64,000 nt of DNA from Octopus vulgaris (lineage: Eukaryota), in contig OX597832.1 in assembly GCA_951406725.2 (NCBI GenBank), positions 46,314,001-46,378,000 on the forward strand. Reading direction: 5' to 3'. The notes under the pieces were generated by a model. That model searched no databases, was not told the DNA's origin, and saw only the letters and a program-made list of their open reading frames with translations. This document shows positions 27,150 to 60,546 of this stretch, piece by piece. How positions within the stretch are numbered: position 1 is the stretch's first letter; each line of letters starts with the position of its first letter. A program made the position numbers and the translations under genes.

Positions 27150-27443
27150 GTTAATCCAAACAAGAAGGCACAAAAAAAACACAACAACGCTAGGACGTGG
27201 AACAAATATAGTATTATTGGACGCTCAGGAAAGAAGGAAAGAAGGAGGGTCCAACGTTTTGAGCGGAGCTCTTCGTCGGAAACATAGGAGAAGGAAAGAT
27301 CCAGAGAAGGGAAGACAGAGGAAAAAATCGCCAACGGTACACACGCGGTCACATTTTGAATGACCGGTAGGAATGTTGTCTATTGACTTTATTACGCATT
27401 CTGGCCACCGGTATGAAAATTTAGAGAAATTTTCTACCCTTAT

Positions 27444-27490: not shown

Positions 27491-28824
27491 TGTGTTTCAT
27501 ATGTTTCATGCGTATAATGATTGTGTAAATACGTATATATTTTTGAAAACTCGGTAACCATGAACAAATAAAATACAGGCGAAGTATATCACGGAAGAAA
27601 AAGCTGCAAAATATAAAGACTGCAGTCGACTGCAGTTTTAAATCATGACATATTTTGCTTCAACAATTATATTTTGGGAGTCTTTTTTTGTTTGTTAATT
27701 TGTTTGGTTGGGTATATGCATATTTATGTAAGATGCGCTCTTTGTATACGTAATTCAATGCATCTAGTTTTTATCAACCACGTAATTCAAACTCACCGGA
27801 ATCGGAAATTGAAGTTTAATAGGCAGAATTATTCAACATTTTGTAAAAGTGTAACTACATGTATTATTCAAATGAAACTCCACTTCTTTTTGTTTGGGGA
27901 GAAAAGAAAGTGCTGATAATACTTTATGCCAGTCAAAGCATGCTTTTTACGAACTACACAATCATTTTATTTACATAAAGAGACCTGAACGAAGACAGCA
28001 TGAGATAAGATGATATTCCTTTTCCACTGTCAAGTAATCAGAAATCGTGCATGTTTTTACATAAACGAACCTCTGTTCCTTTTTTTTATAAATCGAAAGA
28101 AATTTCTTGTGCACCGAGTGGATTCGTGACATATGTAATCTTTCTAGAATAACTGCTTCGCTTGGTACAACATTTGCTTCAATTATGTGCAAAATTATTC
28201 TGATGAAACGCATTTGCCGGGGGAATCGAGCCAAAGTTTGTGTCATGCAACATTTCTTTGGTTTTCTGCCAAAATATATTTTTATGGAAAACGATCTGAA
28301 ATATTAAAAAGAAAACAAAATGAAAAAAAATGTATACATTTTTTGTCTAATTATGGAACGTACACGAATAAGTTAGATAGCACCCTGCATTAAATAAAAG
28401 AATACACGTTGTAACTTGTAGATTATAAACACGAAATTTCGGTGAGAAATGAATTTAAAAGAGAAATTCGATATTAAAAATCAAGCAGAAAGTGTTAATA
28501 TAATTTGGCAATAAATGAAAGAGATGCAAGCAATGTGCAACTGATACGATAATATAAGAAGCTGATTCGCATATTACATTAATATTTCCTTCAAGTATAA
28601 ATCTAAAAATATACATAGATATTACTCACTAGTTCCTTCTTTATCCTCGGCCGGAAAAAATGTGGACACACTGCCATTCGATCGAGCAACTGTTTTGCGA
28701 GAGCAGAGAAAAAGAAGTCTTATACTTAGAGCATATCACAGAGCTATTAAAATAGGCACAAAGCTATTAGAATAGGTTATTCGTTTCTTCTTTTGTTCTT
28801 TTTCTTGCATAAGTTATTGCTCAC

Positions 28825-29325
28825 CACTTCCGAGTGTTATGCCGAACAAATGGGCACCAATCTGTACGGGATTTAGGTCTGGCCCTTATTTTGTCAGGTC
28901 CTTTTCCTAAACCTTTAAGTTATGGACTCATAAACAAACTGACATATTTAGTAAAGAATAGTGGGGAAAATACAAACATGGGTACACGTGAAAATATTAC
29001 GGGTTTCATGAAAATTCTGTCAACACTTCCGAGTGTTAAGCCGAACAAATAGACTGCAGTCCTTATTCGATTTAGGTCTGGCCCTTATTTTGTCAGTTAC
29101 TTTTCCCAAACCCCTAAGTTACAGAGTCATAAACAAAGTAACATCGTTACTAAAGAGTAGTTGGGAAAATACAAACATGGGTACACATGAAAATATTACG
29201 GGTTTCACAAAACTTTTGTTTGCCGAATTCACTCAAAAGACATCAGTAAAATCTGAGCTATACAAGAAAATACTTGTCCAAGGTTCTGCTCAACGGGACT
29301 GAATCAGAAACCATGTGTCTGCAAG
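28825..29325 (-). mobile_element. Old A-related SINE with 199-bp internal tandem duplication
   Basis: CACTTCCGAGTGTTA starts units at 28825 and 29024; ACTTGTCCAAGG...GGGACTGAATCAGAAACCATGTG resembles the A head. Confidence 0.7.
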
Positions 29326-42720: not shown

Positions 42721-42760
<40 letters not shown>

Positions 42761-42765
<5 letters not shown>

Positions 42766-42973
42766 AATGTGACCGCGTGTGCACCGTTGGCGATTTTTTC
42801 CTCCGTCTTCCCTTCTCTGGATCTTTTCTTTTCCTATGTTTCTGACGAAGAGCTCCGCTCGAAACGTAAAACCCTCCTTCTTCCCTTCCTTCTTGAGCGT
42901 CCAATAATACTATATTTGTTCAACGTCCTCGCGTTGTTGTGTTTTCTCTTCGTGTTTTCATGTTTGGATTAAC
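42761..42973 (+). mobile_element. Family E element with intact hammerhead core
   Basis: Flanked by (TA)n on both sides; ends GTTTGGATTAAC. Confidence 0.88.
42838..42872 (+). ncRNA. Minimal type-I hammerhead ribozyme motif
   Basis: GTTT-CTGACGA-A-GAGC tcc GCTC-GAAAC-GTA-AAAC: stem I GTTT/AAAC, CUGANGA, stem II, GAAA, loopless palindromic stem III ACGT, GUA triplet. Confidence 0.75.
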
Positions 42974-43020
<47 letters not shown>

Positions 43021-48248: not shown

Positions 48249-48250
<2 letters not shown>

Positions 48251-48458
48251 TAATCCAAACATGAAAACTCAAAGTGAAAACACAACGCGAGGACGTGGAA
48301 CAAATATACTATTATTGGACGCTCAGGAAGGAAGGGAAGAAGGAGGGTTTTACGTTTCGAGCGGAGCTCTTCGTCAGAAACACAGGAAAAGGAAAGATCC
48401 AGAGAAGAGAAGACGGAGGAAAAATAATCGGCAACGGTACACACGCGGTCATATTTTG
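48249..48458 (-). mobile_element. Family E element with intact hammerhead core
   Basis: Between TA tracts; matches the other E copies. Confidence 0.88.
48347..48381 (-). ncRNA. Minimal type-I hammerhead ribozyme motif
   Basis: Reverse complement is identical to 42838-42872 (GTTTCTGACGAAGAGCTCCGCTCGAAACGTAAAAC). Confidence 0.75.
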
Positions 48459-48496
<38 letters not shown>

Positions 48497-60300: not shown

Positions 60301-60447
60301 GAAAACAAATATTGAAAATATATTCCATTAGATCTTGAAATCAATGAGAGAGAAAATAAAAGAATTCTACGACAGTGTTTTCTAAAGATAAAGCTTATAC
60401 GAATAAGAAATGTAAAAGCGTAAAGAGAAAGTATATATATATAAATA

Positions 60448-60546
60448 CGACAGTACATATTCTAAAATTGGAATGATACAGAGAAGGTTAGCATAGCCCC
60501 TGCTCAAGGTTGACACGCAAATTCGTGAAGCGTTCGAACATGTTTT
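60448..60546 (+). pseudogene. U6: U6 snRNA retro-pseudogene, 5'-truncated
   Basis: CAGTACATATTCTAAAATTGGAATGATACAGAGAAGGTTAGCATAGCCCCTGCTCAAGGTTGACACGCAAATTCGTGAAGCGTTC...TTTT matches metazoan U6 (ACAGAGA box, AGC triad). About 8 substitutions versus vertebrate U6 as I recall it; first ~10 nt missing. Confidence 0.95.

What the first reader, a model, noticed from the sequence alone, without database searches (positions are those of the whole stretch)
42761..42973. Dispersed ~200-bp family in (TA)n tracts carrying a minimal hammerhead ribozyme (5 copies in 64 kb)
Seen: five copies (11397+, 15855-, 27150-, 42761+, 48249-) lie between TA tracts and share a 3' end close to GTTTGGATTAAC. Two contain the identical motif GTTT-CTGACGA-A-GAGC/tcc/GCTC-GAAAC-GTA-AAAC. 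Stem I, stem II, both core boxes and a GUH triplet are present, and stem III is the loopless palindrome ACGT. The triplet varies only within GUH (GTA, GTT, GTC). Known: minimal type-I hammerheads with palindromic stem III occur in the terminal repeats of Penelope-like elements and are thought to cleave as dimers. Inference: a high-copy, TA-targeting, non-autonomous PLE-derived or retrozyme-like family. The extra A after CUGANGA and the CCGACGA copies may reduce activity.
Basis: partly seen in the sequence, partly recalled or inferred. Interest (0 to 1): 0.85.

Follow-up and report, generated by a model that had tools for sequence, protein, structure and literature searches.

The report
Penelope retroelement ends carrying hammerhead ribozyme
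These ~215-base repeats are the cut-short tail ends of a protein-coding Penelope-like jumping gene that sits in TA repeats tens of thousands of times in this genome, and the places where its copies stop suggest that its tiny hammerhead ribozyme likely does cut the element's RNA in living cells.

Summary
All five copies are real (77-100% alike). They are not a stand-alone short family: walking upstream in genome G000 leads through a CA-rich 3' UTR into an RT + C-terminal GIY-YIG ORF (one intact 949-aa copy), with pLTRs in partial tandems and exact 6.2-kb arrays. This is a Neptune-type Penelope-like element; the window copies are 5'-truncated solo pLTRs (at least 10,700 copies, about 49,000 estimated). 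The minimal hammerhead fits the published PLE consensus; the extra A is part of that consensus, not a defect. Most copies and most ORF-linked masters carry a U4C core; the canonical core of the finding's copy marks one small subfamily. Less ordinary: 5' ends are not random. In older subfamilies 46 of 50 stop at a wall about 215 bp from the 3' end (7 expected), likely the transcript start. In the youngest subfamily 10 of 66 stop 0-13 nt inside the hammerhead cleavage site (0.45 expected; replicated), a likely fossil of cleavage in vivo. Stalling of RT is the rival for both. Known kind of element; useful handle on an open question.

The parts
42760..42973 (+). Solo pLTR, subfamily A (U4 core + GUA triplet lineage); 5' end at the wall, 3' end fixed
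   Evidence: 194 of 209 identical to the 3' pLTR of full-length element L310
42838..42872 (+). Minimal type-I hammerhead: stem I 42838-41/42869-72, core 42842-48, extra A 42849, stem II 42850-60, GAAA 42861-64, palindrome ACGT 42864-67, predicted cleavage after 42868
   Evidence: sequence; pair counts; 29 of 30 columns invariant across 7 long-copy pLTRs
42724..42761 (.). Host (TA)n tract, 5' side (target; overlaps the copy's first AT)
42974..42997 (.). (TA)n tract on the 3' side; its first bases match the element's own junction TWTATATA
48249..48460 (-). Solo pLTR, subfamily A, U4 core + GUA; C3 at 48377
   Evidence: 190 of 206 to L310 3' pLTR
27150..27372 (-). Solo pLTR, subfamily A, U4C core, G12A and altered stem I (broken); C3 at 27279
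   Evidence: 210 of 223 to ORF-linked L082
11392..11614 (+). Solo pLTR, subfamily B, intact U4C core + GUU; C3 at 11476
   Evidence: 212 of 220 to the 3' pLTR of full-length L105
15855..16061 (-). Solo pLTR, subfamily C, stem II deleted, GUC; C3 at 15965
   Evidence: 200 of 208 to ORF-linked L093

Best explanation
The five repeats are the 3'-terminal pseudo-LTRs of an autonomous Neptune-type Penelope-like retrotransposon, inserted in (TA)n tracts and cut short at their 5' side, likely because reverse transcription began inside the RNA at a short UAUA junction and ran off the RNA's 5' end. Shown: unit of about 6.2 kb = 5' UTR, ORF (RT, linker zinc finger, GIY-YIG), CA-rich 3' UTR of 1.7-3 kb, pLTR with the hammerhead; partial tandems and exact arrays join through an element-encoded junction (TTTATATA in subfamilies A/B, AATTATA in D). 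Inferred, step by step: (1) the endonuclease nicks (TA)n and the nick primes at the junction, helped by TA homology (0.7); (2) on an uncleaved RNA that starts in the upstream pLTR the product can be at most about 215-225 nt, which gives the wall and the '200-bp family' (0.6); (3) on an RNA already cut by the hammerhead the product is at most about 93-105 nt, which gives the cluster of ends just inside the cleavage site (0.55-0.6); (4) on a circular or multimeric RNA there is no end to run off, which gives long copies, upstream repeats of random length and exact arrays, and so regenerates masters (0.5). The hammerhead would then matter only for step 3-4, and would need a dimer or protein help. 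Identity as PLE ends: 0.97.
For: Upstream walk from the repeat reaches RT and GIY-YIG coding sequence. 19 of 20 loci fetched for the ORF hold a pLTR match, 7 have one on each side (L094, L100-102, L105, L107, L108); subfamily-A full-length copies L310, L311, L313. Intact 949-aa ORF in L348; 889 homologues, best 55% identical; GLRF, DKG, YIDD, CX4CxxC and CCHH motifs. Each element's 5' pLTR is closest (or tied closest) to its own 3' pLTR in 9 of 9; 0 of 125 mismatches in four D elements. Junction exact in 48 A/B and 78 D places; three consecutive D junctions at 6.16-6.19 kb spacing on C10, units 6153 of 6162 identical. Wall: of 70 consecutive copies picked by the 3' 20-mer, 50 pass C3-40 and 46 of them stop by C3-100, 7 expected under constant truncation; 28 of 30 in the finding's own U4/GUA lineage; subfamily-A ends peak at an Inr-like TCATT; 4 of 66 D copies stop at the same landmark, 0.4 expected. 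Cleavage footprint: D ends at C3+27..+40 were 5 of 26 and, with the window fixed beforehand (note), 5 of 40 new copies, 0.27 expected, P 1e-5; none of 66 ended at the four TA-like words at +57..+68; A-C 5 of 70, 1.7 expected. No wall in upstream repeats of D partial tandems: 28 of 30 pass it. Seven of 30 A/B junction copies end 22-132 nt past the junction (tails), which shows priming inside the RNA. Hammerhead 29 of 30 columns invariant against 23 of 63 upstream and 49 of 84 downstream. Literature: transcript starts in the upstream pLTR (PMC2377424), RT starts internally and uses uncleaved RNA in vitro (PMC11167929), circle model (PMC4209133).
Against: No RNA-level observation supports steps 2-4. 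Nearest-neighbour folding prefers inactive forms: monomer -8.9 against -4.6 kcal/mol, dimer -28.3 against -8.3; in D stem I has a U-U mismatch and the active dimer scores only -0.9. U4C lowers activity considerably in vitro (PMC3088659). The wall is broad (26 of 70 ends at -70..-91, 20 more at -41..-68), no cap-derived G is enriched (11 of 54 against 6-7 of 54), the TATA-like word lies 30-40 nt upstream rather than a fixed 30, and 2 of the 13 second pLTRs in mini-elements start upstream of it (-111, -132). Two of the 10 cleavage-window ends sit on an ATA word that overlaps the target. The wall is strong in A-C and weak in D (18 of 20 and 31 of 32 pass it), which the model does not explain without a change in processing or age-dependent loss of long copies. 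Stem covariation is thin: one pair changes on both sides, only between families; stem II never varies. In the one PLE tested in vitro, RT starts at a site not homologous to the target and hammerhead mutants insert normally (PMC11167929). All end-mapping samples are from contig C1.
Confidence: 0.75

Rival explanations
1. Same element, but the clusters of 5' ends are RT road-blocks: RT stalls at a folded or protein-bound hammerhead (+27..+40) and at a second barrier near -85 on a long RNA, then integrates or jumps. The hammerhead could be a catalytically dead protein-binding or packaging signal.
For: The predicted inactive hairpin spans C3-7..+26, so RT coming from the 3' side would meet it at +27. 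U4C and a mismatched stem I are kept in the youngest masters. Three of 30 junction copies are internal deletions that jump from inside the ORF to the same 5' UTR zone as the mini-elements (L292, L305, L306), so jumps on long templates occur.
Against: The hairpin is weak (-7 to -9 kcal/mol) and most D copies read through it for over 500 nt. All catalytic positions except U4, and the NUH rule, are kept across subfamilies whose flanks are 37-58% invariant; the triplet varies only as A, T, C (40, 62, 14 of 116). Two inverted pieces (L290, L298) also end at -74 and -78 though shorter, so the wall is positional.
Confidence: 0.3
2. Most short copies of subfamily A are a SINE-like non-autonomous lineage: a solo pLTR that reaches the start site keeps an internal promoter, is transcribed into the TA tract and is copied in trans by the PLE protein.
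For: The finding's U4/GUA lineage is almost purely short: 28 of 30 stop in the wall zone, 1 doubtful longer; it is a linked haplotype (93 of the first 100 of 297 GUA copies have U4). Penelope has an internal pLTR promoter (PMC2377424). No ORF-linked U4/GUA master was found.
Against: U4/GUA copies with 900 bp of UTR (L052) and with junction plus 5' UTR (L307) exist, so this lineage had a long master. The wall is equally present in U4C copies and subfamilies B and C. No shared discrete 5' end as a single SINE master would give.
Confidence: 0.15
3. A non-LTR retrozyme family: tandem hammerhead repeats that spread as small RNA circles.
For: 13 of 30 A/B junction copies are mini-elements with two pLTRs 300-600 nt apart in the same orientation, the layout of a retrozyme dimer.
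Against: All 13 have different breakpoints, so none is amplified in this sample; strict junctions are 48 against 10,737 3' ends; none of the five window copies is tandem; hammerhead is minimal, not canonical (PMC7229834).
Confidence: 0.04

Closest known systems
Neptune/Nematis-type EN+ Penelope-like elements (Craig et al. 2021, PMC8557442; passages read)
   Same: Single ORF, RT then C-terminal GIY-YIG; GxKF-like GLRF, DKG, CX2-5CxxC linker, CCHH; pLTRs, partial tandems, inverted 5' pieces, tails; microsatellite insertion bias linked to the linker finger.
   Different: 6.2-kb unit with a 1.7-3 kb CA-microsatellite-like 3' UTR (PLEs average about 3 kb per PMC6765202); tens of thousands of copies, over 90% of the older ones pLTR-only with a sharp length limit.
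Minimal PLE hammerheads (Cervera and De la Pena 2014, PMC4209133; first half of text read)
   Same: Type I, no helix III loop, palindromic 15.2-16.2, extra base at 9/10.1, G10.1-C11.1, short helix I, mostly solo copies from truncated PLEs.
   Different: U4C core in most copies and masters (the parts read report U3-A8, not U4C); stem II only 4 bp with a 3-nt loop; little sequence heterogeneity within the family; a sister family with U at position 6.
Poseidon PAc of Anolis (Frangieh et al. 2024, PMC11167929; results and start of methods read)
   Same: RT start inside the RNA, tails from a second start, AT-rich targets, most insertions spanning an uncleaved hammerhead.
   Different: Here the main start lies in an element-encoded TATA word homologous to the (TA)n target, upstream of the ORF; PAc starts at a non-homologous site in the ORF. 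PAc RNA-seq showed no ends at the cleavage site; here genomic copies pile up there.
Hydra and Naiad PLE clades (PMC8557442)
   Same: (TA)n insertion; Hydra also has hammerheads.
   Different: No RWK, DKG not DKT, CCHH present (not Hydra); endonuclease C-terminal (not Naiad).
Non-LTR retrozymes (PMC7229834 passages; bioRxiv 10.64898/2026.07.22.740005 parts 1 and 3 of 5)
   Same: pLTR-derived, type-I hammerhead, non-coding short units; the 13 mini-elements look like newly born dimers.
   Different: Window copies are dispersed monomers of a coding element; no amplified tandem family seen.

Membership tests
EN+ Penelope-like element | Single ORF with RT and GIY-YIG endonuclease | tested here: met
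   949-aa ORF in L348; Pfam RVT_1 E 0.001 and GIY-YIG E 0.011, both below the curated cut-offs; 889 homologues with RVT_1 and some with GIY-YIG; motifs aligned
EN+ Penelope-like element | pLTRs from partial-tandem or tandem structure | tested here: met
EN+ Penelope-like element | Optional 3' tail and inverted 5' pieces | tested here: met
   tails in 7 of 30 A/B junction copies, 0 of 30 D; inversion in L081, L290, L298
Neptune/Nematis type | C-terminal EN with CX2-5CxxC linker and CCHH | tested here: met
   CSRSRCNTC; CNLC between the GIY- and YIG-like motifs, two downstream His; criteria from PMC8557442
Neptune (as against Nematis) | Placement on an RT tree with named references | not testable with these tools
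   no clade-labelled reference came from any call; 'Neptune-type' rests on motifs
Hydra clade | RWK, DKT, no CCHH, CxCX5C linker | tested here: not met
   GLRF, DKG and CCHH present
Naiad/Chlamys | N-terminal endonuclease | tested here: not met
   GIY-YIG at residues 854-890 of 949
Minimal PLE hammerhead | CUGANGA core | tested here: inconclusive
   met in the finding's copy and 2,681 exact copies; U4C in 7,583 and in the youngest masters
Minimal PLE hammerhead | GAAA, NUH, extra base at 9/10.1, G10.1-C11.1, palindromic helix III | tested here: met
Minimal PLE hammerhead | Stems supported by covariation | tested here: inconclusive
   97% of 68 cells pair; one stem-I pair swaps G-C to C-G in the sister family; stem II invariant; D and C have a U-U in stem I (9 hand-picked rows)
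Minimal PLE hammerhead | Self-cleavage (as dimer or protein-assisted) | not testable with these tools
   only the indirect footprint of 5' ends at +27..+40
Non-LTR retrozyme | Amplified tandem non-coding repeats with a hammerhead in each unit | tested here: not met
   window copies are solos; 13 mini-dimers all have private breakpoints
SINE | tRNA/5S/7SL-derived head | tested here: not met
   no such Rfam match in 42762-42973 at E 10

The most novel reading that the evidence does not exclude
The genome holds a fossil record of the Penelope RNA cycle: copy lengths read out three template states (uncleaved and capped, hammerhead-cleaved, circular), showing that a minimal hammerhead with a U4C core cleaves in vivo and that circles regenerate the promoter-bearing masters, while priming uses an element-encoded UAUA that pairs with the (TA)n target; template jumps on the uncleaved RNA give two-hammerhead mini-elements, the birth step of retrozymes.
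Probability: 0.4. Interest if true: 0.72.

Novelty: new member of a known kind. Interest (0 to 1): 0.47.

Why it matters
Why PLEs keep a barely active hammerhead is open (PMC8557442 calls its function unclear; in vitro it was dispensable and no cleaved ends were seen in RNA-seq, PMC11167929), and how pLTRs are regenerated has no settled mechanism (PMC2377424). A young subfamily with an intact ORF, pLTR pairs without mismatches and insertion ends that cluster at the cleavage site gives exact coordinates and a reagent for both questions, and the end-mapping test can be repeated in any genome with young PLEs. For annotation: a 200-bp TA-flanked repeat with tens of thousands of copies here should be filed as PLE, not as an unclassified SINE.

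Tried and rejected
RNA: no RNA holder listed; contigs of four runs guessed to be RNA cover the stretch but cannot show ends, strand or level; not used either way. Rfam finds no hammerhead. No PLE ORF remnant in the window itself (tblastn empty). The Pfam GIY-YIG search of the genome led to other PLE families, not this one. Cap-G test negative. The idea that U4 copies are only CpG decay holds for GUU copies (8 U4 against 7 G5-to-A among the first 100 listed, counted by eye) but not for the GUA lineage. The idea of a length limit rather than a positional wall was dropped: tailed copies reach 262-289 nt and short inverted pieces end at the same place. L306 was first scored as a tail and is an internal deletion; of the five alignments past 227 bp, L270 was spurious and L248 is weak, so 4 of 70 are counted as long. 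Microhomology alone does not explain the +27 cluster. No earlier scan findings. Literature searches that found no report of this family or of end clusters at the cleavage site or start site: (open-access library only). Lunse et al. 2016, the main survey of PLE hammerhead variants, could not be read and may already list U4C cores; Repbase/Dfam and supplements of PMC8557442, PMC4209133 and PMC13282606 were not seen and may hold this family.

Full report
Observation. BLAST of the 42761 copy against the window returns exactly five family members. Aligned, they share the 3' end and a TA tract after it; four also have TA on the 5' side. Copy 11397 has CCGACGA with everything else intact; 27150 has G12A and a changed stem I; 15855 lacks stem II. 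The window is cut from G000 (2.8 Gb, 227 contigs), an unnamed, microsatellite-rich animal genome (128 tandem-repeat rows in 64 kb).

Copy number and target. An exact 20-mer of the 3' end occurs 10,737 times, the exact 29-nt hammerhead 2,681 times with U4 and 7,583 with C4; reversed controls give 0. Forty arbitrary 10-kb stretches hold 7 copies, about 49,000 genome-wide (95% range 20,000-101,000), so this window is denser than average. 61 of 70 consecutive copies, and 66 of 66 terminal copies of the youngest subfamily, are followed by a TA run; background is 3.7%.

What it is. The 3' end is fixed and the 5' ends ragged. Searching with the bases upstream of the longest copies showed the element going on through more than 1.3 kb of CA-rich sequence into RT and GIY-YIG coding sequence (L081, L082). 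Of 20 loci fetched around that ORF, 19 hold a pLTR match and 7 have one on each side; L105 shows the whole layout. Each window copy is 92-96% identical to a pLTR of an ORF-linked copy. Subfamilies A, B, C (in the window) and D (youngest) share the hammerhead. D has pLTR pairs with 0 of 125 mismatches, exact head-to-tail arrays of 6.16-6.2 kb and at least one intact 949-aa ORF (L348); the other D copies examined are frameshifted. The protein has GLRF, DKG, YIDD, a CX4CxxC linker and CCHH, the marks of Neptune/Nematis and not of Hydra or Naiad (PMC8557442, passages). Pfam scores are below cut-off but 889 homologues align over the length.

The hammerhead. It matches the published minimal consensus, extra A included (PMC4209133). 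Across seven long-copy pLTRs (six ORF-linked, one UTR-linked) 29 of 30 hammerhead columns are invariant, against 23 of 63 upstream and 49 of 84 downstream: selection on the masters. The variable column is position 4, and C is the norm: 24 of 24 and 30 of 32 readable D copies. U4 in GUU copies is about as common as the mirror CpG change (8 against 7 in the first 100 listed, counted by eye), but a GUA lineage of at least 297 copies has U4 in 93 of the first 100; the finding's copy belongs to it. U4C is known from a viroid to cut activity in vitro yet suffice in vivo (PMC3088659, passage). Folding prefers inactive forms for monomer and dimer alike, so help from protein is likely, as shown for PAc (PMC11167929). 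Covariation is thin.

The junction. Where a pLTR is followed by the element body, the join is always GGATTAAC-TWTATATA-CYGCAC (A/B; 48 exact places) or GGATTAAAATTATA-CCACTG (D; 78 places). The element thus encodes a few bases of TA exactly where copies end in the host TA tract. Inference: the nicked target primes by pairing there. Seven of 30 A/B junction copies end 22-26 or 106-132 nt further on (tails), 13 are mini-elements (pLTR, junction, 186-471 nt of 5' UTR or ORF start, then a second pLTR starting at C3-27 to -132, all breakpoints different), 3 are internal deletions and 7 run on into the ORF. All 30 D junction copies run on into the ORF.

Where copies stop. Of 70 consecutive A-C copies chosen only by their 3' 20-mer, 20 stop before C3-40, 46 between -40 and -100, none between -92 and -305, and 4 are long; a constant truncation rate predicts 7, not 46. 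Subfamily-A ends peak at an Inr-like TCATT (a set partly biased to long copies), with an AT-rich TATA-like word 30-40 nt upstream in 10 of 11 references. In D the wall is weak (4 of 66, 0.4 expected) and most copies are long, but 5 of 26 stopped at +32 to +40, just inside the cleavage site at +27. With that window fixed in advance, 5 of 40 new copies fell in it (27, 27, 28, 32, 39; 0.27 expected), and none at the TA-like words at +57 to +68. A-C show a weaker excess (5 of 70, 1.7 expected). Upstream repeats of D partial tandems ignore the wall (28 of 30) and each element's two pLTRs match best (9 of 9, with ties), as a circular or multimeric template would give; read-through from the arrays would give the same.

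Against. Nothing here is at RNA level. RT stalling at the folded or protein-bound hammerhead predicts the same +27 cluster, and a barrier could make the wall. No cap-G was seen. Why A-C are wall-dominated and D is not is unexplained. The U4/GUA lineage is almost all short (28 of 30), which leaves room for SINE-like spread, although long and junction-bearing members exist (L052, L307).

Known or new. The element and its hammerhead are a known kind, and solo ends of truncated PLEs were described with the motif (PMC4209133). A recent repeat annotation of a mollusc genome lists Penelope-like families without mention of ribozymes (PMC13282606, passages); whether this family is among them, or in Repbase or Dfam, was not checkable. 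Nine searches of the open library found no report of insertion ends clustering at a PLE hammerhead cleavage site or start site; Lunse et al. 2016 was not available. Other papers seen: PMC6765202 (passages), PMC7229834 (passages), PMC3846280 (passages), bioRxiv 10.64898/2026.07.22.740005 (parts 1 and 3 of 5). 'Inr' and 'TATA' labels are recalled consensus motifs, not tool results.

Verdict.

Noticed in passing
window 60439-60544 (+): Full-length U6 snRNA match (83 bits) with several substitutions, starting in an AT tract and followed by another repeat; likely a retrocopy or pseudogene.
   Followed up: no
L005 ~1215-1265, L100:1372-1412, L102, L141, L146 (12 copies): Sister pLTR family with hammerhead core CTGTNGA (U at position 6), stem I swapped to CTTT/AAAG; often abuts this family in the same TA tract. 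Its ORF was not sought.
   Followed up: partly
L084-L087 (e.g. L084:2745-5087): A different PLE family with many intact 781-codon RT + GIY-YIG frames and an overlapping upstream open frame of 250-479 codons; my hammerhead pattern found nothing within 1.5 kb downstream of L067 and L072.
   Followed up: partly
L281, L285, L288, L291, L293, L296, L297, L299, L300, L302, L304, L307, L308: Mini-elements with two pLTRs 300-600 nt apart, each with its own breakpoint; candidates for nascent retrozyme dimers; absent from subfamily D (0 of 30).
   Followed up: yes
G000:C10:97806610-97825134; C3:155086264/155092461; C16:15987131/15993338: Exact head-to-tail arrays of the 6.2-kb subfamily-D element; the C16 array holds the intact ORF (L348).
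   Followed up: partly
L311 (G000:C1:91502500-91511000): Both pLTRs of one full-length element share a private C3U core change.
   Followed up: partly
L020, L052, L157/L158: Pairs of copies in inverted, near-palindromic arrangement within 250 bp.
   Followed up: no
L216 (- strand): A third, canonical-core minimal hammerhead (CTGATGA, 5-bp stem I, 6-bp stem II) of another family.
   Followed up: no
L043, L045-L048 (C17:67.4-79.6 Mb): Five copies share the same flanks: segmental duplication, not independent insertions.
   Followed up: no
L078 (G000:C30:5221180-5221329): A GIY-YIG exon that looks like a host nuclease (SLX1-like; label recalled), not a PLE.
   Followed up: no
window 28821-29207: Tandem duplication of a 199-bp unit, 85% alike; the window also holds 100 N.
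   Followed up: no
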